Source: an uncultured Candidatus Saccharibacteria bacterium
Lineage (GTDB): Bacteria > Patescibacteriota > Saccharimonadia > Saccharimonadales > Saccharimonadaceae
Direction: 5' to 3'
DNA length: 42,951 nucleotides
Assembly (NCBI GenBank): GCA_964540835.1
Contig: CAZIOA010000001.1
Span: 1-42,951, forward strand
The notes beneath the pieces are model-generated. The model saw only the letters and a program-made list of their open reading frames with translations, had not been told where the DNA came from and made no database searches. This document shows positions 3,369 to 32,662 of the stretch, piece by piece (the first letter of the stretch is position 1; every line of letters starts with the position of its first letter). The translations under genes were made by a program, and so were the position numbers.

Positions 3369-5885
3369 TTAGTTAAATAGGTCGAAACCGACAGCAGGCG
3401 CAGATGGAGCGCTCACGGCAGGTGCCGATGGTTTCGGCACTGGAATATCAAACTTCGGGAGGGACGGTGCAGGTAGTGAATGTGCCGGACTTGGGGTGAA
3501 TTGCTTGACTATAGAAGGGAGTTTGAACGATGGAAATGCTGGCGCGGGTGCTGGCGGTGGCGCGGGTGCTGGCGGCAGCTCTACGACTGGCGGCTTTGGC
3601 GGTGGAGCGACGCGCACAGGAGCAGGCGCTGGCGCGGGTGGTATATATACCGGCTTGGGCGTTTCTAAGCGAGGCGGCTTCGGAGTATCTGCAACGACAG
3701 GCTTTGGCTGCTGTACCGGTTTAGGTGACGGAACTTCATAGGCTGGCGCATCGATGACACGTGGCGGAGTTGGGTCCGGGATCGAATGCACGGGCGGAGG
3801 AGTGATGGCAATCCTATGCTCCACGATGTCGTTGAGCGACTGGCGAGCAGGCTCCGCAGGGGATTTAGGAGCATCCACAGGGGGAGGTGTTTCTACTCGT
3901 ACATGCGTCGGAACGCTATTTGGCTGATCGTCAAGGATATCACTCGCCAGCTGGCCTAGCGATGCCAGTGAGTGTTGAGTAGTTTGTTGTGCCGGGTGAG
4001 GAGCAGTTTGTCGCGAGGCATTGGCAGACGCTAACTCTTGAGCAGTCATGGCGGCATATTGGATGAACTGATCGGCAATCATATTGAGCTCACGACCGAA
4101 GTCCATGCCAGTGTACTGTTTGATCTGGTCTCTCGCCGTGTTGACAACGAAGTTCTTGCCGTCACCAAGTGCGTTTTCGATGACGTGATCGACTTCGCCC
4201 ATGAGTTTGTTGATTTCGCCCATAACAGTGCTAAATGCACGTTGAGCGGCATTAAACTTCGTCAATGGGTCGACATTTGGATCATTGATAATCGCAGCGG
4301 CTTCACCGACAGCGCCTGCCATATGGTTAAAGCCATTCCAGCTATCATCCATCAGCTGCTTCCACGGCTCGGGCATATTCGCTACCAATGTCTGGAAGAA
4401 ATTGCCGGTACCAAACTGCGCGTCAAGTGCCTTGGCTCCATAATGTAGCGCTTCACGAACATTTGCTTCCGGTGGCGGTGCGTTCGGATCGTCATTGCGC
4501 GGAAAGAGGGCACGGAGCGCTCGATTAGCACTCTCGGTGTCCATGATCCTGATACCAGCCCTTTCAAGCGCATCAACGACCCATTCGTTTTCGCGGTGAG
4601 CAACCCAGTGCTCGATGCCGTTCGCATCCTTAAACATCGTCCATGTCACGCTCGGATCATTGCGATCAGGCACCTCATGAGTGCCGTGAGGAATACCGGC
4701 GATGCTATACATGAGGGAAGTAAAGCTTTCGTTGCCACCACTGGCATATGGGTCACGATCATTGTAGAACATGCGTATCTTCGCGCCAGGAGGAAATGCT
4801 TGCTCACCACCCGTGTCGCGGAGACCGATTAACCCCGTGCCGAGTTTGCCCCAAGGACTCTTATCTATACCCTCGGCTCCTTGCGGCCCACCGATCATAT
4901 CGATCGTCAGGTCGCCTGGCCACTTGTTGCCATTTTGCCGATATACGTCCCAGGCAAAATCCTGCCCGGCATACGTACCGAATGAATAATAGATGAAGTG
5001 CGCGTGTTCGCCGCGCGACTGGGATTCCTGGTATCTTGCCATGGAGACTGCCGAGCCCTCTTCAATCGACGTTTCTGGTGATCTAAAGGGGTTACCGATA
5101 CCCATATCGGCAGACCAAGTCATACCTTCGTCACGATTACCAGGAGCGTAACCTTTGGCGTCAAACTCCGGCATAGGAGCCATGACCTGGGTATTGCCAC
5201 CCATACCGTAAGACCTGGTCGTCACCACTGCGTGCTCTATCGTGCCCACTGAAGACGCGTATGAGACGGCAGCATTTTTCGCTTCGCGATCTGGCTTGTC
5301 GGCATGTACGCCACCAAAGAGTACTACGCCAAGCGCCGTGCCACCAGCAAGCACGGTCGCCATGGCTTTTGGCGCTGCGTCAGACGCCAACTCCTGTAAA
5401 CGAGCGGCGGAGCGACTAAGCGCCTTTTTCGTCCTCGTCGACAGTGGATCTTCATCGTTGATTTTAGTCTTTTCGCGTCTCTCCATGCGCGCCTGCAGCA
5501 CAAGTGTTCGCTCCTCTATAGTGTGCTCGCGATGATTCTGCCATTTATTTTGTGCAAAAGTGTAGGCATTTTCGGCCGCCACCACGAGGTTGCCACGAAC
5601 CTGTACGGCTTTTTCTCGAACATGTGTCAGCGATTCAGCGACACCCGCCGCGACCGCGTGCCGATAGTCGACCGGCTCATCCGAGTTTTTATCGAAGTCA
5701 AATAAATTTTCTTCGACCTCCTCACCGCGAAGGTATTTATAGATAGATTCGAGAAACAAGTCACTACCGAGGTCATCCAGCCCCTCTTCCGAAGCGAGAT
5801 ATTGCTCCATTTCTCGATCATGAGTAGCCAAGGCATCTAACGATACTTCAACCTCTGTCTCAGTTGTTACTAAACCTCGACTCAT
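3369..5885 (-). CDS. Membrane-anchored paralog of the poly-proline-tailed hydrolase family (possibly degenerate nucleophile)
   Basis: 838-aa ORF. Charged N-terminal region of about 170 aa, one TM (AMATVLAGGTALGVVLFGGV), core with YYSFGT elbow-like motif and LDAQFGTGNFF block homologous to 1432..3216, and a Pro-rich tail of about 200 aa (PAPAPAPV, PPAPAPPPAPAPAF). Confidence 0.8.
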   Translation of the reverse strand: MSRGLVTTETEVEVSLDALATHDREMEQYLASEEGLDDLGSDLFLESIYKYLRGEEVEENLFDFDKNSDEPVDYRHAVAAGVAESLTHVREKAVQVRGNLVVAAENAYTFAQNKWQNHREHTIEERTLVLQARMERREKTKINDEDPLSTRTKKALSRSAARLQELASDAAPKAMATVLAGGTALGVVLFGGVHADKPDREAKNAAVSYASSVGTIEHAVVTTRSYGMGGNTQVMAPMPEFDAKGYAPGNRDEGMTWSADMGIGNPFRSPETSIEEGSAVSMARYQESQSRGEHAHFIYYSFGTYAGQDFAWDVYRQNGNKWPGDLTIDMIGGPQGAEGIDKSPWGKLGTGLIGLRDTGGEQAFPPGAKIRMFYNDRDPYASGGNESFTSLMYSIAGIPHGTHEVPDRNDPSVTWTMFKDANGIEHWVAHRENEWVVDALERAGIRIMDTESANRALRALFPRNDDPNAPPPEANVREALHYGAKALDAQFGTGNFFQTLVANMPEPWKQLMDDSWNGFNHMAGAVGEAAAIINDPNVDPLTKFNAAQRAFSTVMGEINKLMGEVDHVIENALGDGKNFVVNTARDQIKQYTGMDFGRELNMIADQFIQYAAMTAQELASANASRQTAPHPAQQTTQHSLASLGQLASDILDDQPNSVPTHVRVETPPPVDAPKSPAEPARQSLNDIVEHRIAITPPPVHSIPDPTPPRVIDAPAYEVPSPKPVQQPKPVVADTPKPPRLETPKPVYIPPAPAPAPVRVAPPPKPPVVELPPAPAPPPAPAPAFPSFKLPSIVKQFTPSPAHSLPAPSLPKFDIPVPKPSAPAVSAPSAPAVGFDLFN

Positions 5886-5960: not shown

Positions 5961-7265
5961 ATGACAAAAAAGAAGCTCCCAGAGGTGACACTTACGCTTG
6001 ACCGTATCATCGGCGGCGGGCAGTGTATCGGCGATTTGGAAAATGGCAAAAAATGTCTCGTATGGGGCGGTCTGCCTGGTGAAGAAGTGCGCGTGCAGCT
6101 GACGAAAAAGAAGTCGTCGTACGTCGAAGGGTACGTAACAGAGGTGATGAGGCCATCATCCGAGCGTATATCGCCACGCGACCCAGATGGCTACCTCAGT
6201 ACCAGCCCATGGCAGATCATGCAATTCGAGGCCGAAGCGCACTACAAATCAGCATTGATCGAAGAAGCGTTTGAACTGCATGACATGGTCCTACCGCAAC
6301 CGATCACTGTCTGGAGCGACGAGGTAGAGTACGGCTACCGCAACAAGGTAGAGTACAGTTTTTGGTACGACACCGAGAAAGAAACGTTGGATCTGGCGTT
6401 TTTCCGCCGCGGCACACATGGTAAAATCGCCGTCGACGGTACAAGCCTCGCAACCCCTGTCATTAACAGGGTAGCCCACGATGTACTCGCCGAACTACGC
6501 AAGCTTAAGGTCGATGGCCGAAGTTTGAAAACCCTTCTCATCCGAAGCAATCGCGCTGGAGAAGTCACCTGGCAGCTCTACGTCAAAGATGAGGATTTCG
6601 ACGCTGAAGCGGTACTCGCAAGTACCATCTCGCCAGAGGTGATTTGCGCCGAAGTAATCTACTCGAACCCCAAATCGCCAGCCAGCGTCATCACCAAGCG
6701 GCTCGGCGCGACCAGCGATAACATCCTGACCGACACCATTTTGGACGTACCATTCCGCTACGCAACCGAAGGATTCTTCCAAATCAATCTACCAGTTTAC
6801 GAGCAAGCCCTGACAGATATGAAAACATGGATTGAACCAAACAAACCAGTTGTTGATTTATACAGTGGTGTCGGAACGATTGGCCTCACCATCGGTGGAA
6901 CTGATGTGGCACTTATAGAGATGAACGAACATGCCGTCCGCGAAATGGAGCGAAATATCGTAGCACTCGGCAGGGTAGCTGAGGCAAGACCGATTCTGGC
7001 TGCCAGCGAGAATGCACTTGACCACATCACTGGCGAGGCAACAGTCATCGTCGATCCGCCGCGCGCCGGGTTGCACGAAAAGGTCGTCGCGAAACTACTT
7101 GAAACTGCACCTCAGCGCATCATCTACCTTAGTTGTAATCCTGTCACCCAGGCCCGCGATGTCGCCAGACTAGCCGAAAAGTACGGCATCCGCCACCATA
7201 TGGGCTACAATTTCTTCCCCCGAACACCCCATATCGAACACCTCGTTATCCTTGACAAGTTCTAA
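5961..7265 (+). CDS. RNA (uracil-5)-methyltransferase, RlmD/RumA/TrmA family
   Basis: TRAM-like N-terminus plus class I SAM methyltransferase motifs VDLYSGVGTIGL, VIVDPPRAGL, YLSCNP. The ORF track starts at 5919, but TATAAT at 5947-5952 makes the in-frame ATG at 5961 (MTKKKLPEV) the likelier start. Confidence 0.85.
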   Translation: MTKKKLPEVTLTLDRIIGGGQCIGDLENGKKCLVWGGLPGEEVRVQLTKKKSSYVEGYVTEVMRPSSERISPRDPDGYLSTSPWQIMQFEAEAHYKSALIEEAFELHDMVLPQPITVWSDEVEYGYRNKVEYSFWYDTEKETLDLAFFRRGTHGKIAVDGTSLATPVINRVAHDVLAELRKLKVDGRSLKTLLIRSNRAGEVTWQLYVKDEDFDAEAVLASTISPEVICAEVIYSNPKSPASVITKRLGATSDNILTDTILDVPFRYATEGFFQINLPVYEQALTDMKTWIEPNKPVVDLYSGVGTIGLTIGGTDVALIEMNEHAVREMERNIVALGRVAEARPILAASENALDHITGEATVIVDPPRAGLHEKVVAKLLETAPQRIIYLSCNPVTQARDVARLAEKYGIRHHMGYNFFPRTPHIEHLVILDKF

Positions 7266-23511: not shown

Positions 23512-24366
23512 TCATTCTGTCTGGACAGCCGCTTTGTTACGGATATCAGCAGATGAATGATCGTCAGAAGTGATGTCGTGCGCATCCTCAAGCACCGTGT
23601 GGCTCTCTACTGCCAGTGCCGTGAAGATAACGGTCAGGATAAAGAACACGTACGCCTGGACAAAGCCGATAAACAGCTCAAATAGCAGGAATGGCGGCAA
23701 CGCGACGACAGCGACGTAACTCGTCAAGACTCCAATGATGACGAGGAGGATCTCACCAGCGAAACAGTTGCCAAACATTCGGACGCTCAGCGCCGCGTAT
23801 CGTGAGAATTCTCCGATAAACTCAAGGACACCTTCGAAAGATCCGATCGGATCCTTGATCGGATTGCGGAAGTATCGTTTCAGGCTGCCAATGGGACCAT
23901 GCACGCGCAACGCGTAGTATTGCACCATGATCAGCACGATGATCGCGACCGCAAACGTGAAGTTCAGATCAGCCGTGATCGCGCGAAGTACTGGCGCATC
24001 GTTCCAAAAGATCGAGTCGAGTCCCGGCAACACGCTCATCCAGTAACCAGCCAGCATGAAGAAGAAGATCGTCAATGCAAGCGGTGCGACCTGGCGAGCG
24101 ATCTTTTGGTCTGGGATGACGCTATACACCTGACCGAGCATGCCTTCAAACGCCCACTGCACGAGTCCGACGAAACGATTATAGCGACCGTTTTTGACCA
24201 TGTAGGCGACGTAGCCTAGCACGCCAAAAAGCACGATGAGACTCAGTCCGCCAGTCAACAATGAGTTCGTGATCGGAAACCCGCCGATACTAAACAACTC
24301 TTGTGAAGCGACGTGGATCTCGATCCCGCCTGACGTAGACGCAAAATTACTCAACATACTCATCAT
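23512..24366 (-). CDS. atpB: Fo ATP synthase a subunit
   Basis: Multi-pass membrane protein with a conserved-Arg region (YAALSVRMFGNCFAGE) and an acidic C-terminal extension of about 35 aa. Confidence 0.9.
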   Translation of the reverse strand: MMSMLSNFASTSGGIEIHVASQELFSIGGFPITNSLLTGGLSLIVLFGVLGYVAYMVKNGRYNRFVGLVQWAFEGMLGQVYSVIPDQKIARQVAPLALTIFFFMLAGYWMSVLPGLDSIFWNDAPVLRAITADLNFTFAVAIIVLIMVQYYALRVHGPIGSLKRYFRNPIKDPIGSFEGVLEFIGEFSRYAALSVRMFGNCFAGEILLVIIGVLTSYVAVVALPPFLLFELFIGFVQAYVFFILTVIFTALAVESHTVLEDAHDITSDDHSSADIRNKAAVQTE

Positions 24367-24710: not shown

Positions 24711-24917
24711 ATGCCTCGCAGAAACCATAAACCACCTAAATATATTCGCTACAGCCCACCTATGAACGAACGGGCAAAGACCCGTTATCGCAACAAGAAA
24801 GACGCCGAAAAGGCAGCTGAGATGCAGATGTTGATCGTACCAAGCCTAGAGTTGACGGTCTACCAGGGAATAGATGGTGGATGGTATCTGACTCGCCGCA
24901 AAAATTCTCATGATTGA
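24711..24917 (+). CDS. Small basic hypothetical protein (68 aa)
   Basis: TACAAT box ends 6 nt upstream of the ATG. K/R-rich N-terminus. No motif recognised. Confidence 0.45.
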   Translation: MPRRNHKPPKYIRYSPPMNERAKTRYRNKKDAEKAAEMQMLIVPSLELTVYQGIDGGWYLTRRKNSHD

Positions 24918-25004
24918 CTTTTTTGCCACTAGATACTATGATTTAGGCACTTCATGGCGGTGGGGCAGAAGTACATTGACAAGCAGACAGACACAAGGTG
25001 AGTT

Positions 25005-25198
25005 ATCGCTGCGCCACTTCGCGCGCACCGGTATCTCATCTTGTGTTGGTAAGAATACACAAGCGGGGGAGACCCCGAGGACAATCGCCTGTGAGAACCG
25101 GAAGGAAGCGCGATGCGAATCGCAATCCCAAAGGGCCGGGCGATAGTCTCGGTCAAAACACGCCAATTCGATACCGAAAGGAATGGGGTCTGACAATC
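25005..25198 (+). promoter_or_regulatory. Structured GC-rich 5' leader of the acyl-CoA dehydrogenase gene (candidate cis-regulatory RNA, unclassified)
   Basis: Hairpins CTTGTGT/ACACAAG (25040/25057), CGGGG-GAGA-CCCCG (25064-25077) and GCGAT-GCGA-ATCGC (25110-25123). Long-range helix CCGAGGACAATCGCC (25075-89) with GGCGATAGTCTCGG (25139-52). No SD in front of the ATG at 25199. Confidence 0.35.
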
Positions 25199-26494
25199 AT
25201 GGCCGACAACATTTTTACCCTGTTAAGTCCAGATCAGTTGGAACTGCTGGAAGATGCAGGCAAGGAAACGGCAACATTCTCCATGGAACCTCCGGAGTTC
25301 GCGTCCACTTGGGCCCAATTTGTCGGCGATTTCGCCGACAGGGTGATTGTTCCCGTTGCCCGTGACTACGACGAGCGGGAGGCGTTCCCGATCGAGGTTG
25401 TGCAGGAGGCAGCGAAGGAGGACATTTACGGCATCCTGCCGCTGCTACTCGCCCAGGCTGAAAAGTCCGGTCTCTTCTTGCCGGAGATGGTGAGGGCGCT
25501 GTTCAAACGCGATCCGGGGTGCGGCATGGCGATCATGGGCTCGGCACTCCCTGCCGCTGCAGTCCAAGCCAACGGCACTCCCGAGCAAATTCTGGAGTGG
25601 GTGCCGCAGCTGTATGGCACCAAAGAGGACATCAAGATCGGAGCGCTCTGTGTGACCGAAGAGGGTGCTGGCTCGGATGTGTCGAAGCTGCGAACTCGAG
25701 CAGTACGCGACGGCGACGATTGGGTCATCACCGGCAACAAGATGTTCATCACCAACGGCTCGGTGGCCGACATGTATGTCGTCGTGGCAACTGTCGATCC
25801 CGAACTAGGGGCTCGCGGTCACGCCAGCTTCATGGTGCCGCGAGACACCAAGGGTGTGGAGCCGGGCAAGAAATCCGACAAATGTGGGATCAAGGGCAGT
25901 GACACGTCACCGGTGTACTTCGATAACGTGCGCATCCCTCGTGAAAACCTGTTGGGTGGAGAGGGTGCGCTCGAGGATAGGCTCGCCAAGGCTCACGAAG
26001 TACAGAAAAACCCGAACGCCCACAGTGGTGGCAAAAATCCCGCCATGGCGACCTTCGAGGCAACTCGCCCTCTAGTGGGGGCGATGGCAGTCGGTGTCGC
26101 CGAAGCTGCGCTGGAGTATGTGATAAACTACGCCAAGACACGCGAAGTTTTCGGCTCAACACTCGACGCCAAGGAGATCACCGCGGTGAAGTTTGCCAAT
26201 ATGGCCACGGAGATCGAATGCTCCCGGCTGTTGGTCTGGCAAGCTGCCTGGATGGCGAAAAACGGCAAGAAGTTCACGCGAGCCCAAGGCTCGATGAGCA
26301 AGCTGAAGGCAAGCGAGACTGCCGTGAACGTGACTCTGGAAGCCATCCAGATCATGGGCGGTTACGGCTTCATGCGTGAGCATCCCGTCGAGCGGTGGCA
26401 CCGCGATTCGATCATCATGAGGATTTTCGAGGGCACCAGCGAGATCCAGCAGCTGGACATCGCCGGAAAGCTCACGGGTCAACGTGTCCGCTAG
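25199..26494 (+). CDS. Acyl-CoA dehydrogenase family protein
   Basis: EEGAGSDVSKLRTRAVRDGDDWVITGNKMFITNG and RIFEGTSEIQ are typical ACAD blocks. The ORF track starts at 24998, but the first 67 codons are low-complexity leader; MADNIF at 25199 is the likely start. Clearly higher GC than neighbours (55-68% in 60-nt samples I counted). Confidence 0.85.
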   Translation: MADNIFTLLSPDQLELLEDAGKETATFSMEPPEFASTWAQFVGDFADRVIVPVARDYDEREAFPIEVVQEAAKEDIYGILPLLLAQAEKSGLFLPEMVRALFKRDPGCGMAIMGSALPAAAVQANGTPEQILEWVPQLYGTKEDIKIGALCVTEEGAGSDVSKLRTRAVRDGDDWVITGNKMFITNGSVADMYVVVATVDPELGARGHASFMVPRDTKGVEPGKKSDKCGIKGSDTSPVYFDNVRIPRENLLGGEGALEDRLAKAHEVQKNPNAHSGGKNPAMATFEATRPLVGAMAVGVAEAALEYVINYAKTREVFGSTLDAKEITAVKFANMATEIECSRLLVWQAAWMAKNGKKFTRAQGSMSKLKASETAVNVTLEAIQIMGGYGFMREHPVERWHRDSIIMRIFEGTSEIQQLDIAGKLTGQRVR

Positions 26495-26672: not shown

Positions 26673-27836
26673 ATGAAGCTTAAGCGTCATGTCGATGCGT
26701 TTTTGGACAACACACAGTCGTCTGGAAGCTACTATCTTGGCGCCGATTCTTTTGACGCTCTCACTACAGGTTCGCTCCAAAAACTTGCGTCACTTCAGTT
26801 TCGTTTGCGCGCGGGTCGACTTCTGCTATCCCGAAACGCAGATGACAGACGAGCTGTCAGTCATATAAACAAGGTATTTCACGAAGATGATCTACTGTAT
26901 ATAACAGCTAAGCAGGATGGTTCCGGGGAGCTGCAGCGACCCATCACGCAGCAAACCAAGATCGTGCGATGGCTTGCGACCGCATCACAAAAAGACATAT
27001 CGACATTTCATAAATGGAACAGGGAGCGCACGCAAGATCTGCAGCTGGCACTAGGTCGCGATAGACCGGAAATAGTCGGCAAAGCCATGGAGAAAACCCA
27101 TGAGCTCGCTGATATAGGGCTGTTTCCAAAGTTCGCACCAGCCGTGATGGAACATGCGGTAAACAACCACTCGCTCGTTGCCATGGACACATTTATGAGC
27201 GCTGGACTGTACAGGGTCGGGTTTTGCTCCGACCATGAAGTCGCACTAGCAAATTTGTACGAAGACAAACTCAGCCTGGTAGGCGGCTCGGATGAACTCA
27301 ACAGGGTACCGTATCACGAATATTTGCATGCTGCTGGTAATGATCGTGGGTTTTTCAGAGGACTATACACACCCCTGTGGGTATTGCGCCCGCTGGAAGA
27401 AGCATTTGTCGAGCATGCGACCATGGTAGCATTGACAGATGAGCCGAAACGACCAGAAACAATTCACCCACAGGCTCGTACCGATGCCTCCGGTATCAGC
27501 GGAAGCTACTATCAGGAGAGAAGGCTCCTCGACTCGATCGTTAATCATACCGATATAAGTATCGAACAGCTAGGCGAAGCCTACTTCACGCCCCAGGGCA
27601 CAGAACGAGGCGACATGATACGCGCCGACATAGAGAGAAAAATCGGCAACTACTTTGTGTCTACTCAGAATTTTTTTGCATTCGTCGACAAATACGAAAA
27701 GTCAACTTTAAAGAAAAGAGACGAACTCATCACTAATGCCATTAATCAAGTTGAAGATGGAGGAGGCTTCCGATCTGACGAGCCACTGTACAGGAAAGTC
27801 TGGAGACCGCTGTCAAAGCTGCTGGTATACTCATAG
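26673..27836 (+). CDS. Hypothetical protein with HExxH zinc-metallopeptidase-like motif
   Basis: VPYHEYLHAAG (HExxH) with downstream acidic EEAFVEH as a possible third ligand. 387 aa, no signal peptide seen. Confidence 0.55.
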   Translation: MKLKRHVDAFLDNTQSSGSYYLGADSFDALTTGSLQKLASLQFRLRAGRLLLSRNADDRRAVSHINKVFHEDDLLYITAKQDGSGELQRPITQQTKIVRWLATASQKDISTFHKWNRERTQDLQLALGRDRPEIVGKAMEKTHELADIGLFPKFAPAVMEHAVNNHSLVAMDTFMSAGLYRVGFCSDHEVALANLYEDKLSLVGGSDELNRVPYHEYLHAAGNDRGFFRGLYTPLWVLRPLEEAFVEHATMVALTDEPKRPETIHPQARTDASGISGSYYQERRLLDSIVNHTDISIEQLGEAYFTPQGTERGDMIRADIERKIGNYFVSTQNFFAFVDKYEKSTLKKRDELITNAINQVEDGGGFRSDEPLYRKVWRPLSKLLVYS

Positions 27837-27902
27837 TACGTACACCTTGCATACGAAATGCATTTTGATATACTAAGTATAGTAAATAGAGGGATAATTA
27901 TC

Positions 27903-28175
27903 ATGAGCGACGCAAAACCACAAGTTACAATCTATAGCACCACGTGGTGCGCGTTTTGTCACACCGAAGCACAGTGGCTCGACCACCTAGGCGTCCCGTA
28001 CGTCAAAAAGGACATCGAACAGGACAAGGAGGCATATGAAGAGCTCATGCAGAAAAGCGGTGGCAACTACTCAGGCGTGCCCGTCACCGATATCGCTGGC
28101 GACCTCATTCTCGGCTTTGACCGCCCCAAACTCCTTGACGCGCTCAAAACACACAACCTCCACCCGTCTGCTTAA
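27903..28175 (+). CDS. Glutaredoxin/NrdH-like small redox protein
   Basis: VTIYSTTWCAFCHTEAQWL (CxxC) in a thioredoxin-fold context. ATG at 27903 follows GAGGG (ORF track 27858). Confidence 0.8.
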   Translation: MSDAKPQVTIYSTTWCAFCHTEAQWLDHLGVPYVKKDIEQDKEAYEELMQKSGGNYSGVPVTDIAGDLILGFDRPKLLDALKTHNLHPSA

Positions 28176-28239
28176 CTAAAGTGCTTATTGCTAATATTCT
28201 GCCGATAGCGTATATTCCGTCTTATCACGGAGTATCGCC

Positions 28240-29865
28240 ATGGGTAATCATGAAACCGAAAAATATGACGATTTTGAGACGATAGAGGGTGAGTCGGTCA
28301 TCGTTTGTATTGACGGCGTATCCAAGATCGAAGAGATGTTCGGTTCCGAATCGCTCTCAGCCCCGACAAATCTAGAAATTGAAAAAGACGTCAACTGGCC
28401 TCGACCGACAAAAAGCATGTCAGTCGAGCTGCTGCCGCTCGAAACAGATATCGACGGGGCGACCCTCGCTACGCGATCAATCAGTACAACGCTAACGTTT
28501 CCAAAATTCAAAGAGATTCCAGATGACGCGCTTGTATCATTCATAACGAATCGCCTCCACGAGGAAACGGGGATACACACGGATTTTTACCCGACGATTC
28601 ATGATGGCGACCACATGGAACACTGGATTTGCGCGCATGATGAATACGCCCTCGTATTTCAAATGCGGAGCAAGGAAAATGAACTATCGCTCCGCGCGTA
28701 TTCTGAGTATGACGATGTACCGGACAAAGATCAGATCAATAGACGTAAGTTGCAGCTGTTCTACATAGCTTCCACGCTCGCGCTCGACGCGTTGGCCAGC
28801 CAACTACCAAATCAAGAAATGAACACACAACGAACTCTCATACGCATTTCTCCTCCTGAAATTAATGAGGAGGGGTTAGAGCAAGAGACAGATGAAACCA
28901 ACGAGCCGGAGGACGCACCTGGAAAGGAATTGGAATTGTGGGTCGGTGAGGAAGAAGCGCCTATAAGGGAGCTGCTTGGACGACCATTTGATACCATCGG
29001 TGGACTGACGCTCGCCAAAGAAAAGTTACTCGAAATAGGTCTCGCATGGACATATCCCGAACTCGCCAAAGAATACGACATACAGCCTTCGCACTTCGTC
29101 CTCCATGGCCCTCCCGGTACGGGCAAAACCTCGCTCATAACGGCCTTCGCCGAAGAATTCGACGCAGAGCTTGTCGCAAAGCCTTCAACCACAATCGTGA
29201 ACGCTTATCTCGGTAAATCAGCCACGAATCTGGCCGACGCATTCAAAGAAGCAACTGACAAGGCAGAAAAGCAAAGAGTCCTATTGTTTTTTGACGAAAT
29301 CGATTCGTTAATAGGAAATAACAGCAAGCAACACCGCGAATACGGCCAGGTAGTAAATACGTTCAAACAGGAACTCGATAATCTAGCCAAATCGCCACAC
29401 TGCAGGAACGTCATCGTAGCGGCAGCGACAAATGCCGATATACAAGACCTCGAACCTGCGATCGTACGCTCTGGCAGGATCGAACCGATTCCCGCGCCAG
29501 CGCCAAACGAAAAAGAGCGCATAGATATCTGGTCGCGACTTATCTACACGTCCGAAGATATCAAAAGAGAAATCGATGCGGTGCAAAACGACAAAGATGA
29601 CGACGAAGAGCTGGTTGCCGCCAGCAAACTGAACCCGTCTCGCTTCGACAAAGATATCGATATCGGCAAACTTGCCAAATTGACCGAAGGAAAAACCGGA
29701 GCCGACTTCGTACAGATTTTGAAACGGATCCGCGTCAAAAAGTTTCGTCAAGCAGTCGGGCTCATAGCTTCGGGCAGACAAATAGAGCATGACGAAAATC
29801 CCCACGTCAAACTCATCACGCAAGTCGATATCGAAGATGCTATACGAACGTTTGGCGTGACTTAG
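28240..29865 (+). CDS. Classical-clade AAA+ ATPase with a unique N-terminal domain of about 270 aa
   Basis: Walker A HGPPGTGKT, Walker B LLFFDEIDS, second region of homology ATNADIQDLEPAIVRSGRIE. Single AAA module. Confidence 0.85.
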   Translation: MGNHETEKYDDFETIEGESVIVCIDGVSKIEEMFGSESLSAPTNLEIEKDVNWPRPTKSMSVELLPLETDIDGATLATRSISTTLTFPKFKEIPDDALVSFITNRLHEETGIHTDFYPTIHDGDHMEHWICAHDEYALVFQMRSKENELSLRAYSEYDDVPDKDQINRRKLQLFYIASTLALDALASQLPNQEMNTQRTLIRISPPEINEEGLEQETDETNEPEDAPGKELELWVGEEEAPIRELLGRPFDTIGGLTLAKEKLLEIGLAWTYPELAKEYDIQPSHFVLHGPPGTGKTSLITAFAEEFDAELVAKPSTTIVNAYLGKSATNLADAFKEATDKAEKQRVLLFFDEIDSLIGNNSKQHREYGQVVNTFKQELDNLAKSPHCRNVIVAAATNADIQDLEPAIVRSGRIEPIPAPAPNEKERIDIWSRLIYTSEDIKREIDAVQNDKDDDEELVAASKLNPSRFDKDIDIGKLAKLTEGKTGADFVQILKRIRVKKFRQAVGLIASGRQIEHDENPHVKLITQVDIEDAIRTFGVT

Positions 29866-29968
29866 CACACCCTGACCGCCACTGAGACTTGCCAATACAA
29901 CAACTAGACTATATTGCTATAATATGATATAGTTATACCAGTCCCATTCATATACGAAGGGAGGGACG

Positions 29969-30190
29969 ATGACAGAAGCTGGTATACATCTGATGGCAAG
30001 TCTATTTGGAGCATTCATCGGAACTCTTGCCATAATCATGCTCGTGATCATGGTGGTAACGGTCATGGTGAAAGTGGTAGCAAGAGTCGCCACGATGATG
30101 GGATTCGATCAGCTTGAGTTCAGGATGAACTACTGCGTGCCTGAGGGCATCAAGGAAGCGGAGAAGTACGCAAACTCTCCCGCATCCTGA
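29969..30190 (+). CDS. Small membrane protein (73 aa) between the AAA+ and Pup-ligase-family genes
   Basis: Strong RBS GAAGGGAGGG 4 nt upstream. Hydrophobic residues 8-45, polar C-terminal tail. Confidence 0.6.
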   Translation: MTEAGIHLMASLFGAFIGTLAIIMLVIMVVTVMVKVVARVATMMGFDQLEFRMNYCVPEGIKEAEKYANSPAS

Positions 30191-30208
30191 CCGCTACATC
30201 TACCAACG

Positions 30209-30295
30209 CCCCCGTCTGCACCTCGCACCAATTCACGACGTTGCACAATCCAGTTGGGATTGTCGTACTCGGAATTGGTGCAGGTAGCGCGGGGG
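30209..30295 (+). other. Extended RNA hairpin / possible terminator or attenuator
   Basis: GCACCAATTC (30225-34) pairs with GAATTGGTGC (30272-81). Inside it are ACGAC/GTCGT and CAATCC/GGATTG pairs, and outside it CCCCCG/CGGGGG, followed by TCTCTCTTTTTGG. CTGCACC (30216-22) can alternatively pair with GGTGCAG (30277-83). Confidence 0.5.
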
Positions 30296-30376
30296 TCTCT
30301 CTTTTTGGCTCTTTCTCTCAGTGGTAACAAATAGGCTATTTTATATTTGCGCCTATACGCGTATAATGTGCCCTCA

Positions 30377-31804
30377 ATGAAGGGACTTGGGAGAAATACA
30401 ATCGATGATTTCCGGTATGGCGTACCGGAGCGTGCGTTTGGCAGCGAAGTCGAATACACGCACCGGAGGGAAATCGTGCAACCGTTTAAAGATCGCTACC
30501 TTGACGCACCCGAATCCCAGCTGATTTTTTATGTTTCGCCTGAATACGCGGTTGCGCCAGGCAGGAATCATCATGACAGTGTGATCACGAGGAACGGCGG
30601 CGAACTGTATCTTGACTTGACATCACTGGAATTCGCGACACCGGAATGCCGGACACCAAGCGAGCTGGTAACGCATGAACGGGCTGGTGAAGTGATCGTC
30701 GCAGATGTCGTCGACCGACTATCGAATCACTTCGGCACGAAAGAAAAAGTTTTCAAACGAACCGGTTATGTGGACACCGTGGTGGCCGACAAGCGATTCA
30801 GTCAAGACAGTATTGGATATCACGAAAGCTATACAAGCATGAACGAATTCACGACACACTCGGCGTCGACAGCATATGGCAAGGAAACAAAAAAGCTCAA
30901 GGAGGCGCAGTGCTTATGTGATTTTCTCGCGCTTCGAAAACTAATCGACGGCGCGGGAATGGTAGCAAATAATCATTTTTCACTAAGCCAAAAAAGTCGC
31001 GCGATCAACTTCAATTACTACCGAAAAGAAGGCGTGAGAGGTGGCACGAAAGAACCTTTTTACATAAAATCAAGCCGTCTGGAAGTGAGGGCTGGCGAAA
31101 ACAGCAAATCCGACTGGGCAACCGAGTTTACGTTCGGGGTGACATCGCTCGTGCTACGCCTGCTCGAACATCAGCGGTATCCCGAACATTTAATGCTTCG
31201 AGACGCAAACGATGCAGCGCGACGAGTTGCCAGAACTCCCAATGCGGCAGTCGCACTGCAGTCCGGAATAACCATGCGTGCAATCGACGTCCTGAAAGAA
31301 ATCGTCGAAGAAGCATACGCGCTCGCAAGCGCATACCCGGATATGCCCGAGTATGAAGAAAAGGCGTTTCAGGACTTCCAAAAATTCTATGCCGACATGC
31401 ACCGGATCAGCTTACGTGATCACGATGTCAAGGCCCTTGCAGATCGAATCAACTGGGCGGCGAGGTTCGACTTTTTGGTCAAGGCTGGGGCGACTTACGA
31501 TACGTTTACCGCATCAGATCTCAATCAGATCAGCCACGATCTAGTGTGGGATCGAATCGGCGAAAAAGACATCGCCCGACGCAGACTGAGCAAGTTGGGG
31601 TTGACTGCACTGACAGCTGACGTGCTAGGGCCACCGCAAACCCGCGCAGCCACGAGGATTAAGATAGCTGGCAATCTATATAAAGAAGATAACCTGCGAT
31701 CCGTCGAATGGTTCAAGGTGACGCCAAAGACTGGTGAACCCCGACTACTGGGCGGTCCACTAAATACTCAAGCCACATGGCCAGACGGCAGCCTCGTCGA
31801 TTAG
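30377..31804 (+). CDS. Pup-ligase/deamidase family protein (PafA/Dop-like carboxylate-amine ligase)
   Basis: FGSEVEY, NGGELYLDLTSLEFATPECRTPSELVTHERAGE, GYHESY, LIDGAG, LSQKSRA, RLEVRAGENS and PPQTRAATR are collinear with remembered PafA/Dop blocks. ATG at 30377 lies 9 nt after TATAAT (ORF-track TTG at 30347). Confidence 0.8.
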   Translation: MKGLGRNTIDDFRYGVPERAFGSEVEYTHRREIVQPFKDRYLDAPESQLIFYVSPEYAVAPGRNHHDSVITRNGGELYLDLTSLEFATPECRTPSELVTHERAGEVIVADVVDRLSNHFGTKEKVFKRTGYVDTVVADKRFSQDSIGYHESYTSMNEFTTHSASTAYGKETKKLKEAQCLCDFLALRKLIDGAGMVANNHFSLSQKSRAINFNYYRKEGVRGGTKEPFYIKSSRLEVRAGENSKSDWATEFTFGVTSLVLRLLEHQRYPEHLMLRDANDAARRVARTPNAAVALQSGITMRAIDVLKEIVEEAYALASAYPDMPEYEEKAFQDFQKFYADMHRISLRDHDVKALADRINWAARFDFLVKAGATYDTFTASDLNQISHDLVWDRIGEKDIARRRLSKLGLTALTADVLGPPQTRAATRIKIAGNLYKEDNLRSVEWFKVTPKTGEPRLLGGPLNTQATWPDGSLVD

Positions 31805-31819
31805 GCTATACTGGATACG

Positions 31820-32662
31820 ATGAGTAAAAAATCCATAATGCTCGCCAGTGGAAACGAAGTTATTTACTGGTCACATCATGACGACAAGAAGCCGACGCTT
31901 GTGCTCGTGCATGGGTTCACCGGTTCTCACGAGGGGTTTCAATATCTCGTGCCACTACTAAAAAACTTCCGGGTGATCATCCCTGATCTGCCGGGATTTG
32001 GCGTCAGCCCGCTACCGCACGACAGGATAACGCTGGCGCATCTGGGGAAACTGCTGGCTGAGTTCATCGACGCGCTTGATCTCAAAAAGCCACCGCACAT
32101 CGTTGGTCATTCCATGGGCACGCTCGTTGTCGCGGAGGCCGTACGACAGCGACCGGAAATAGCCGCCAAAAAACTCATCCTCATCAGTGCGGTACCGTCA
32201 CCGATTGGTATCGCTGATATGCGACGAAGCGGGGCGGCGCTCAGCCAGCTCTATTACACGGCGAGTCACCGCTTACCGGTCATCGGTTCGAAACTGGCAA
32301 CAAGCAAGAAACTGACGCGACTCAGCACCCACCTGATCATGACGACAAAAGACAAAAAGTTACGACGAGATATACACGGACATCACTTCAATAACCTCAA
32401 CTACATCAGTGATATTGGCTGGTACCGACGGCTCTACAAACAGATCAACCGTACTGGCATCAGTCGCTACCACGAAGCATTCAAGCCATACGACGTGCTC
32501 ATGATAAACGGCGACAAAGACGCCGTCACGCCACTTAAACACCAACGTAAAACCGCCAAGCTGCTAGGTGCTACGCTTGAAATCATCCCTGGCGTCGGCC
32601 ACCTGTCACACTACGAAACCCCAGATCAATTAGCCCTCAAGATTAGGCAGTTTTTGCGCTAG
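31820..32662 (+). CDS. Alpha/beta hydrolase (esterase/lipase-type)
   Basis: LVHGFTGSH oxyanion region, GHSMGT nucleophile elbow, C-terminal GVGHL His region. TATACT box 7 nt upstream of the ATG. Confidence 0.85.
   Translation: MSKKSIMLASGNEVIYWSHHDDKKPTLVLVHGFTGSHEGFQYLVPLLKNFRVIIPDLPGFGVSPLPHDRITLAHLGKLLAEFIDALDLKKPPHIVGHSMGTLVVAEAVRQRPEIAAKKLILISAVPSPIGIADMRRSGAALSQLYYTASHRLPVIGSKLATSKKLTRLSTHLIMTTKDKKLRRDIHGHHFNNLNYISDIGWYRRLYKQINRTGISRYHEAFKPYDVLMINGDKDAVTPLKHQRKTAKLLGATLEIIPGVGHLSHYETPDQLALKIRQFLR

What the first reader, a model, noticed from the sequence alone, without database searches (positions are those of the whole stretch)
28240..31804. Orphan pupylation-like module: AAA+ ATPase, tiny membrane ORF and a PafA/Dop-family ligase, with no Pup or proteasome gene in view
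Seen: 30377..31804 is collinear with blocks I remember from PafA/Dop. These are FGSEVEY (cf GIETEFG / GTEVEYG), NGGELYLDLTSLEFATPEC..LVTHERAGE (cf [29 protein letters not shown]), GYHESY (cf GCHENY), LIDGAG, LSQKSRA and PPQTRAATR (cf PPQTTRARL). Upstream, 28240..29865 is a classical-clade AAA+ protein (Walker A/B, ATN..LEPAIVRSGRIE) with an unrecognisable 270-aa N-domain. A strongly RBS-driven 73-aa membrane ORF and an 87-nt hairpin lie between the two genes, and an alpha/beta hydrolase follows. Known: PafA/Dop plus the Mpa/ARC AAA+ unfoldase form the Pup-proteasome pathway of Actinobacteria and Nitrospirae; the related UBact systems sit in a few Gram-negative phyla. In those cases the tag gene (ending GGQ/GGE) and usually prcAB are adjacent. 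Inference: no ORF ending GGQ/GGE and no proteasome subunit are visible here. This may therefore be a proteasome-independent, possibly membrane-linked tagging or amidoligase system with an unidentified substrate or tag.
Basis: partly seen in the sequence, partly recalled or inferred. Interest (0 to 1): 0.8.

Follow-up and report, generated by a model that had tools for sequence, protein, structure and literature searches.

The report
Orphan Pup-ligase homologue in Saccharibacteria
A tiny-genome bacterium (Saccharibacteria) carries an intact relative of the enzyme that actinobacteria use to tag proteins for the proteasome. No tag or proteasome gene lies nearby, and the neighbouring unfoldase-type ATPase sits beside it only in this genome, not as a conserved partner.

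Summary
All the sequence observations are real. The gene at 30377-31804 is a true Pup_ligase family member (Pfam PF03136, 137 bits against a cut-off of 25). It keeps the GxExE motif and the catalytic Asp. The gene at 28240-29865 is a classical AAA+ ATPase with an unrecognisable N-domain. The 73-aa ORF, the 88-nt hairpin and the following alpha/beta hydrolase are all present. No Pup, UBact or proteasome gene is in the window.

The "module" reading does not hold. In 19 other Saccharibacteria ligase loci, none has the AAA+ gene within 9-10 kb. In five AAA+ loci, none has the ligase. Both genes, together with an HExxH protein, an acyl-CoA-dehydrogenase-like gene and purF, are optional occupants of one variable slot. 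That slot lies around an anchor glutaredoxin gene and upstream of an alpha/beta hydrolase gene.

In the window, a terminator-like hairpin and a separate -10 box lie between the AAA+/ORF pair and the ligase. The 73-aa ORF has no homologue among 1.84 billion representative proteins.

The ligase belongs to a Saccharibacteria-restricted clade that is neither PafA nor Dop. It lacks the Dop loop and has a diverged target-binding loop. It is most likely a proteasome-independent carboxylate-amine ligase with an unknown partner. This is a new variant of a known enzyme family and of moderate interest.

The parts
26673..27836 (+). 387-aa HExxH protein. It is an optional occupant of the same variable region and a possible zincin-like metallopeptidase. 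It is not a proven partner of the ligase.
   Evidence: No Pfam or NCBIfam hit. The family has only 13 clusters. HEY[LI]H..G.DRGFF and, about 25 residues later, EEAFVEH are invariant. The AF2 model has pLDDT 79 and pTM 0.79 and has no significant PDB fold match. The gene is present in 11 of 17 ligase loci, and also in L093, which has no ligase.
27858..28175 (+). Glutaredoxin-like gene. It is the conserved anchor of the syntenic slot. The true start is probably the ATG at 27903.
   Evidence: PF00462 at 8.5e-13. It is present directly upstream of the AAA+ or of the ligase in essentially every related locus.
28240..29865 (+). Classical-clade AAA+ ATPase with a single AAA module, Cdc48/p97-like, and a family-specific N-domain of about 250 aa.
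   Evidence: PF00004 at 96.7 bits. The best NCBIfam hits are CDC48 and PAN; pup_AAA scores only 58.7 against a cut-off of 504.75. The motif set is conserved in 26 homologues. In the AF2 model (pLDDT 78), only the AAA module matches p97 at E about 1e-16. The gene follows the glutaredoxin gene in 5 of 5 other loci.
29969..30190 (+). 73-aa hydrophobic orphan ORF with a strong Shine-Dalgarno sequence. It is either specific to this lineage or spurious.
   Evidence: GGGAGGG lies 4 nt upstream of the ATG. A promoter-like site is at 29905-29933. No tblastn hit in any fetched locus. A phmmer search of 1.84 billion representatives found only the ORF itself and one low-complexity hit.
30208..30308 (+). 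88-nt imperfect hairpin (30208-30295) followed by UCUCUCUUUUUGG. It looks like an intrinsic terminator that closes the AAA+/ORF73 unit.
   Evidence: MFE -54.4 kcal/mol for the 121-nt segment 30195-30315; z-score -6.37; 0 of 200 shuffles fold as well. The sequence is unique in the window and absent from all 93 loci. Its function as a terminator is inferred.
30340..30367 (+). Promoter-like TTTATA-16-TATAAT. The -10 box ends 9 nt before the ligase ATG, which implies a separate and probably leaderless transcript.
   Evidence: It is the best promoter-like site in 27700-32000, matching 10 of 12 positions. No Shine-Dalgarno sequence precedes the ATG. In the window, 13 of 35 genes have a TAnnnT box ending 4-10 nt before the start codon, against a background of 6.8%.
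30377..31804 (+). 475-aa Pup-ligase-family (PafA/Dop, glutamine-synthetase-fold) carboxylate-amine ligase of a clade found only in Saccharibacteria.
   Evidence: See Best explanation for details.
31820..32662 (+). Alpha/beta hydrolase, a backbone gene of the syntenic region. It starts 15 nt after the ligase stop but has its own TATACT box.
   Evidence: PF00561 at 3.4e-27. It is present in ligase-plus and ligase-minus loci alike. Its upstream sequence is shown.

Best explanation
**What the ligase is.**
- The gene at 30377-31804 encodes a functional ATP-dependent carboxylate-amine ligase of the Pup-ligase (PafA/Dop) family.
- It belongs to a clade restricted to Saccharibacteria that is orthologous to neither PafA nor Dop.

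**How it probably works (inferred from the family chemistry).**
- It binds ATP and Mg in the beta-sheet cradle.
- It phosphorylates a glutamate-type carboxylate of a partner that has not been identified.
- D80, acting as a base, helps an amine attack the acyl-phosphate to form an amide or isopeptide bond.
- It lacks the Dop loop. Its equivalent of the PafA target-binding loop is rebuilt. It therefore probably acts as a ligase on a different donor/acceptor pair, with no proteasome involved.

**How it relates to its neighbours.**
- It is its own transcription unit.
- The adjacent AAA+ gene is an independent Cdc48-like unfoldase family, widespread in Saccharibacteria, that always follows the glutaredoxin gene.
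- The two genes are neighbours here only because both occupy the same variable slot.
- The 73-aa ORF is an orphan and is not a component.
For: **Shown: family membership and intact active site.**
- Family membership rests.
- R19, G22, E24, E26, N73, G74, Y78, D80, E85, T88-C91, G147, H149, Y152, R187, G192, G194, Q205, R234, G240, W360, D388, P420, T422, R423, R427 and W445 are conserved in both canonical PafA/Dop and the Saccharibacteria clade.
- D80 aligns with PafA D64. The D64N mutant is catalytically inactive (bioRxiv 10.64898/2026.04.10.717840).

**Shown: the enzyme is not a Dop.**
- The distance from ExE to the catalytic Asp is 56 residues. In the loci examined it is 61-62 in UBact-type PafA and 90-97 in Dop.
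- The Dop loop distinguishes Dop from PafA (PMC7947786).

**Shown: a separate clade.**
- In a neighbour-joining tree the Saccharibacteria ligases form their own clade (70% bootstrap), outside the PafA and Dop clades.
- The paralogue pairs arose by duplications within the lineage.

**Shown: canonical positions are changed.**
- Positions that are invariant in canonical enzymes differ in the clade: R76E, H83S/T, H236E and D131Y.
- In the target-binding loop, the PafA R201 and R207 equivalents are E218 and T224, and the D208 equivalent is K225.
- R201A and R207A nearly abolish pupylation.

**Shown: no tag or proteasome nearby.** No Pup, UBact or PrcAB gene is found in the window or in 26 Saccharibacteria loci. 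The same searches recover UBact in 42 and PrcAB in 44 canonical loci.

**Shown: gene context.**
- No other ligase locus (0 of 19) has the AAA+ gene, and no AAA+ locus (0 of 5) has the ligase.
- A hairpin and a separate -10 box lie between the AAA+/ORF pair and the ligase.
- ORF73 has no homologues.

**Inferred:** the reaction chemistry, the ligase direction of the reaction, and terminator and promoter function.
Against: - No partner, tag or substrate was identified, so the reaction is extrapolated from PafA.
- Only about +/-10 kb per related genome could be read. Co-occurrence of AAA+, HExxH protein and ligase at the level of whole genomes is untested.
- The optional genes of the slot (possible peptidase, unfoldase, ligase, next to a redoxin) all have a protein-quality-control flavour. 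That could reflect a functional link rather than chance.
- The tree is a rough neighbour-joining tree and contains no actinobacterial sequences.
- The ligase structure was not modelled, so the Pup-binding groove was not examined.
Confidence: 0.6

Rival explanations
1. AAA+ unfoldase, small membrane protein and ligase, perhaps with the HExxH protein acting as the protease, form one proteasome-independent tagging and unfolding system.
For: - All four genes sit within 5 kb on one strand.
- Canonical loci also place an AAA+ gene next to a Dop/PafA gene.
- The AAA+ has an intact pore loop and Arg fingers.
- The HExxH protein is present in 11 of 17 ligase loci against 1 of 6 ligase-minus loci.
Against: - The adjacency is unique to the window: absent from 19 other ligase loci and from 5 AAA+ loci.
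- L093 has the HExxH gene but neither the ligase nor the AAA+.
- A hairpin and a separate -10 box lie between the genes.
- ORF73 has no homologue.
- The AAA+ lacks the Mpa hallmarks.
Confidence: 0.15
2. The enzyme has left protein tagging. It ligates a small-molecule amine or carboxylate, as glutamine synthetase and gamma-glutamylcysteine ligase do. It would make a metabolite or a cell-envelope modification.
For: - No tag gene is nearby.
- Several canonically invariant residues are replaced, and the protein-target loop is rebuilt.
- The superfamily includes small-molecule ligases (PMC7947786).
- Glycosyltransferase and hydrolase genes lie downstream.
Against: - The full-length architecture of about 475 aa, including the C-terminal domain with its PPxTRA motif, is retained.
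- The downstream genes are backbone genes that are also present without the ligase.
- No biosynthetic partner tracks with the ligase.
Confidence: 0.15
3. This is an ordinary split pupylation or UBact system. The tag and prcBA genes, and perhaps a Dop, lie elsewhere in the genome.
For: - Only 43 kb of the genome is visible.
- Some relatives carry two ligase paralogues that NCBI names ligase and amidohydrolase.
Against: - Canonical systems are tightly clustered in 44 loci.
- None of the 26 Saccharibacteria loci holds any such gene.
- The paralogues are lineage-specific duplicates, and both lack the Dop loop.
- Scores against the PafA and Dop equivalog models fall far below the cut-offs.
Confidence: 0.07

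Closest known systems
PafA, the Pup ligase of Actinobacteria (PDB 4b0t, 4bjr), and the PafA-type ligases of UBact loci
   Same: - Same Pfam family and same full-length architecture.
- GxExE motif, catalytic Asp in the beta3/4 loop, HE(N)Y, the R187 and R234 columns, and the C-terminal PPxTRAxxR motif are shared.
- No Dop loop.
- NGG...YLD...E[YF]ATPEC signature.
   Different: - 94 bits against a cut-off of 551 on the PafA equivalog model.
- It forms a separate clade.
- R76E, H83S and H236E replace canonical residues.
- In the extended (alpha) loop, INTRDEPHAD is replaced by GGTKEPF, and the equivalents of R201 and R207 are lost.
- No Pup/UBact, proteasome or Mpa gene nearby.
Dop, the depupylase/deamidase (PDB 4b0r, 9cku)
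   Same: Profile similarity is equal to or slightly better than that to PafA (1.9e-27), and the catalytic core is the same.
   Different: - It lacks the roughly 40-residue Dop loop: spacing of 56 residues against 90-97.
- It lacks the NGAR.Y[NH]DHAHPEY signature.
- 64 bits against a cut-off of 492 on the Dop equivalog model.
[quoted passage not shown]
   Same: They are orphan-like family members outside Actinobacteria and Nitrospirae, and their function is unknown.
   Different: - Different phylum. Candidate-phyla-radiation bacteria are not mentioned in that survey.
- The Planctomycetes proteins partly align with the Dop loop, and this clade does not.
- No direct comparison was made here.
Mpa/ARC, and Cdc48/p97, PAN and FtsH-type classical AAA+ unfoldases (for the 28240 gene)
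   Same: Classical-clade AAA module with a second region of homology, an aromatic pore loop and Arg fingers. The closest fold is the p97 D1/D2 module.
   Different: - A single AAA module.
- A new alpha/beta N-domain instead of the coiled-coil plus OB domains of Mpa or the double-psi barrel of Cdc48.
- The C-terminus is FGVT (FGR in homologues), not GQYL or an HbYX motif (the GQYL and HbYX motifs are recalled from memory).

Membership tests
Pup_ligase family (Pfam PF03136; PafA/Dop carboxylate-amine ligases) | Score above the Pfam gathering threshold over most of the model | tested here: met
   137.3 bits against a cut-off of 25, covering model positions 66-440 of 441. The clade profile matches Dop and PafA chains at 1e-24 to 1e-27.
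Pup_ligase family (Pfam PF03136; PafA/Dop carboxylate-amine ligases) | N-terminal GxExE strand and a catalytic Asp in the beta3/4 loop | tested here: met
   G22, E24 and E26 are invariant. D80 aligns with PafA D64 and Dop D95. Position 64 is Asn in the inactive 4bjr construct.
PafA (Pup--protein ligase, TIGR03686) | Equivalog score above the curated cut-off | tested here: not met
   94.2 bits against 551.3.
PafA (Pup--protein ligase, TIGR03686) | Conserved extended (alpha) loop that binds protein targets, with R201 and R207 essential | tested here: not met
   The loop aligns, but INTRDEPHAD becomes GGTKEPF. R201 aligns with E218 and R207 with T224.
PafA (Pup--protein ligase, TIGR03686) | Genomic association with pup or UBact and with prcBA | tested here: not met
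   None in the window or in 26 related loci. The same searches are positive in 42-44 canonical loci. The rest of the genome was not visible.
Dop (depupylase/deamidase, TIGR03688) | Equivalog score above the cut-off, and a Dop loop of about 40 residues | tested here: not met
   64.3 bits against 492.3. Spacing from ExE to Asp is 56 residues against 90-97 in Dop.
Mpa/ARC proteasomal ATPase (TIGR03689), for the 28240 gene | Equivalog score above the cut-off | tested here: not met
   58.7 bits against 504.75. CDC48 and PAN models score higher.
Mpa/ARC proteasomal ATPase (TIGR03689), for the 28240 gene | N-terminal coiled coil plus OB domains, and a C-terminal GQYL docking motif (features recalled from memory) | tested here: not met
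   The AF2 N-domain is a mixed beta-sheet and helix fold with no Pfam hit. The C-terminus is ...IRTFGVT. The N-domain could not be fold-searched on its own.
Classical AAA (PF00004) | Walker A and B motifs, second region of homology with sensor-1 and Arg fingers, and pore loop | tested here: met
   96.7 bits. G290-K296, E353, A396-T397-N398, R410 and R413 are invariant, and Y/W-hydrophobic-G is conserved.
Conserved AAA+/ligase gene module | Adjacency or co-occurrence recurring in related genomes | tested here: not met
   Absent from 19 other ligase loci and from 5 AAA+ loci. Whole-genome co-occurrence could not be tested.

The most novel reading that the evidence does not exclude
Saccharibacteria have re-purposed a PafA-like ligase for a new, proteasome-free conjugation chemistry that uses a tag or acceptor unlike Pup or UBact. 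One conceivable donor is a protein tail ending in Glu. The optional genes of the same slot, namely the Cdc48-like AAA+ with its novel N-domain and the HExxH zincin-like protein, would be its unfoldase and protease arms. This window would then be the one genome seen so far that has the complete set in one place.
Probability: 0.15. Interest if true: 0.8.

Novelty: new variant of a known kind. Interest (0 to 1): 0.45.

Why it matters
Pupylation is regarded as a proteasome-coupled system of Actinobacteria, Nitrospirae and the UBact phyla. Here a conserved, catalytically intact PafA-like clade occurs in ultra-small episymbiotic bacteria and shows no tag or proteasome in about 470 kb of related loci. 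This points to a second use of the enzyme fold, either a new protein tag or a new amide-forming reaction. No paper in the searched library links Saccharibacteria with pupylation. The result also gives a caution: adjacency seen in one genome looked like a module, but comparative synteny shows that it is a shared variable slot.

Tried and rejected
- **The "GATase" gene beside the ligase in relatives, as a possible Ntn-hydrolase partner.** It is PurF, an amidophosphoribosyltransferase.
- **The roughly 95-aa ORF next to PurF, as a possible tag.** It is a membrane protein ending in NNQP.
- **The conserved 68-aa ORF (24711-24917) and the glutaredoxin, as possible tags.** Both are present without the ligase, and neither ends in Glu or Gln.
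- **Clustering all ORFs of at least 30 aa by presence in ligase-plus versus ligase-minus loci.** No small ORF is specific to ligase-plus loci.
- **Foldseek on the AAA+ model.** Only the AAA module matched.
- **Foldseek on the HExxH model.** Nothing was significant.
- **PADLOC defence models.** The only hit was a generic AAA match to IetA.
- **The hairpin as a repeated element.** It is unique in the window and in all loci.
- **Paper searches.** Several timed out before later ones worked.
- **First tree attempt.** It timed out.

Full report
**Organism and setting.** The window comes from a member of Saccharibacteria (Patescibacteria/CPR). All close homologues of its proteins come from Saccharibacteria or Patescibacteria assemblies. 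Gene order is shared with the complete 1.13-Mb genome CP060232.1 and with many metagenome-assembled genomes. The shared order is: the ATP synthase operon on the minus strand, a 68-aa ORF, glutaredoxin, alpha/beta hydrolase, a GT4 glycosyltransferase, a second GT4, an amino-acid kinase, and SmpB.

**Checking the observation.**
- The 475-aa product of 30377-31804 scores 137 bits on Pfam Pup_ligase, against a cut-off of 25. It scores far below the curated PafA (94 against 551) and Dop (64 against 492) equivalog cut-offs.
- A 27-sequence profile of its clade matches solved Dop and PafA chains over nearly the full length, at 1e-27 to 1e-24.
- The AAA+ protein (28240-29865) has a complete classical-clade motif set. 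Its N-domain of about 250 aa has no detectable relatives in Pfam. In a pLDDT-78 model, only the AAA module aligns to p97/Cdc48.
- The 73-aa ORF has a GGGAGGG ribosome-binding site.
- The hairpin at 30208-30295 is very stable: -54.4 kcal/mol for the 121-nt segment 30195-30315, with a z-score of -6.4.
- No ORF ends in G[QE] at a plausible place. No proteasome domain occurs in any sizeable ORF of the window.

**Is it a module?** Comparative synteny says no.
- I read 19 other Saccharibacteria loci that carry a ligase of this family: L001-L006, L010-L020 except L013, and L088-L090, some of them near-duplicates.
- Where the upstream flank is on the contig, the ligase (one or two copies) sits just downstream of the glutaredoxin gene. 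In no locus is the AAA+ gene within 9-10 kb. This includes the window's nearest ligase relatives, L088-L090.
- The AAA+ family has about 25 clusters of 500-535 aa with the same N-domain. It lies directly after the glutaredoxin gene in all five loci examined, and none of these has a ligase.
- The HExxH protein accompanies 11 of 17 ligase loci. It also occurs in L093, which has neither ligase nor AAA+.
- The region around the glutaredoxin gene and upstream of the hydrolase gene is therefore a variable slot. It holds any subset of an acyl-CoA-dehydrogenase-like gene, the HExxH gene, the AAA+ gene, one or two ligase genes, and purF. The window happens to hold four of these five.
- Within the window, the hairpin and its U-tract follow ORF73. 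The best promoter-like site of the region, TTTATA-16-TATAAT, ends 9 nt before the ligase ATG.
- A -10-like box 4-10 nt before the start codon occurs at 13 of 35 genes, against a background of 6.8%. Leaderless, gene-by-gene transcription therefore looks common in this genome.
- ORF73 has no homologue in any locus or among 1.84 billion representative proteins.

**What the ligase is.**
- Residues conserved throughout canonical PafA/Dop and the Saccharibacteria clade include the GxExE strand, Y78, D80, E85, the TPEC motif, H149, Y152, R187, Q205, R234 and the C-terminal PxTRxxxR motif.
- D80 aligns with PafA D64. D64 is the proposed catalytic base, and the D64N mutant is inactive.
- PafA works like glutamine synthetase. 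It phosphorylates the gamma-carboxylate of the C-terminal Glu of Pup, and a lysine amine then attacks.
- Dop is distinguished by a loop of about 40 residues, and PafA by its alpha/extended loop that contacts targets.
- In the loci I fetched, Dop-type genes show NGAR.Y[NH]DHAHPEY and an ExE-to-Asp spacing of 90-97. PafA-type genes show NGGRLY[LI]DMGH[LI]EY and a spacing of 61-62. The Saccharibacteria clade shows NGGE[LM]YLD..LE[YF]ATPEC and a spacing of 56-61. The clade is therefore PafA-like and has no Dop loop.
- It also departs from both types at positions that are invariant in them: R76E, H83S/T, H236E and D131Y. In the target-binding loop, INTRDEPHAD becomes GGTKEPF, and the equivalents of R201 and R207 are lost. 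Alanine substitutions at R201 and R207 nearly abolish pupylation.
- A bootstrapped neighbour-joining tree places all but one of the Saccharibacteria ligases included in one clade (70%), outside the PafA-type and Dop-type clades. The exception, L032, branches beside the canonical clades. The two-copy arrangements appear to be lineage-specific duplications, and the window protein groups with L088-L090 at 85%.

**Tag and proteasome.**
- From the canonical loci recovered in the same scan, I extracted 33 distinct UBact sequences, which end in RYRQR[ST]G[QE], together with PrcA and PrcB. These are found in 42-44 loci of Verrucomicrobiota, Poribacteria, Nitrospirota, Fraserbacteria and others.
- PrcA and PrcB searches find nothing in the window plus 26 Saccharibacteria loci, 473 kb in total.
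- No small ORF tracks with the ligase.
- I could not read whole genomes, so a distant tag gene is not excluded.

**Most likely mechanism.** This is an intact, independently transcribed PafA-like ligase. It activates a glutamate-type carboxylate with ATP and couples it to an amine, on a donor/acceptor pair that differs from Pup and its targets, without a proteasome (confidence about 0.6). The chemistry is inferred from the family. The independence from the AAA+ gene is shown by synteny. Three rivals remain:
- a real AAA+/HExxH/ligase proteostasis system whose parts are scattered in other genomes (0.15);
- a small-molecule amidoligase (0.15);
- a split canonical system (0.07).

**Comparison with the literature.** A RefSeq-based survey reports PafA and Dop in Actinobacteria and Nitrospirae. 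[quoted passage not shown] It does not mention candidate-phyla-radiation bacteria. No paper in the searched libraries combines Saccharibacteria with pupylation terms. NCBI already names clade members "PafA2 family protein", so family membership is recognised by automatic annotation. The clade's distinctness and its orphan status appear not to have been described.

**Verdict.** This is a new variant of a known enzyme family. Interest is moderate (0.45), because no partner or function is yet in hand and the proposed module dissolves on comparison.

Noticed in passing
window 24988-25160 (+); also L001 about 6108-6290 and about 6855-7040, L003 about 5395-5590, L005 about 5385-5580, L011 about 6810-7000: A conserved non-coding element of about 180 nt lies upstream of the acyl-CoA-dehydrogenase-like gene. 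In L001 it occurs twice, the second copy before an unrelated 142-aa ORF. It has long invariant blocks. RNAalifold predicts 54 pairs, 6 of them with compensatory double changes (-67 kcal/mol). It has no Rfam family. It is a candidate riboswitch or leader RNA.
   Followed up: partly
window, start regions of 13 genes, for example 9355, 30377, 31820, 33967(-), 34182, 37364(-), 37407: A TAnnnT (-10-like) box ends 4-10 nt before the start codon at 13 of 35 genes, against 6.8% at random positions. These genes have no Shine-Dalgarno sequence. Leaderless mRNAs therefore look common in this genome, while the internal ATP synthase genes keep Shine-Dalgarno sequences.
   Followed up: partly
window 26673-27836 (+): An HExxH protein family with only 13 clusters, all from Saccharibacteria. 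It has no Pfam hit. The model is confident (pTM 0.79) and has no significant PDB fold match. The invariant HEYxH..G.DRGFF motif, followed about 25 residues later by EEAFVEH, suggests a new gluzincin-like peptidase.
   Followed up: partly
window 23512-24366 (-); orthologues in 14 other loci: ATP synthase subunit a carries a hydrophilic, His/Asp-rich C-terminal tail. The tail ends in Glu in 14 of 15 Saccharibacteria loci (...AAVQTE...TAASTE...LVTQHE). This holds whether or not the ligase is present, so there is no correlation with the ligase, but the conserved tail is odd.
   Followed up: no
window about 25199-26494 (+): An acyl-CoA-dehydrogenase-like gene with all three ACAD domains occurs in an organism thought to lack fatty-acid metabolism. 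It is variably present in the same slot and is preceded by the structured RNA element described above.
   Followed up: no
L019 8613-11371; L028 1734-3170; L032 9968-11371: More distant orphan Pup-ligase homologues occur in Candidatus Saccharimonas (a tandem pair, one copy with a Dop-like NGARLYYDMAHSEY motif but no Dop loop), in Levyibacteriota and in another Saccharimonadales genome. None has UBact or PrcAB nearby.
   Followed up: partly
L021-L027, L031, L037, L040, L043-L045, L052, L053, L065, L080, L081, L084, L085: Many Verrucomicrobiota loci (Chthoniobacterales, Prosthecobacter, Spartobacteria) carry a single PafA-type ligase with no UBact, PrcAB or second ligase in the sequence fetched. 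Orphan PafA-type genes may therefore be common outside candidate-phyla-radiation bacteria too.
   Followed up: no
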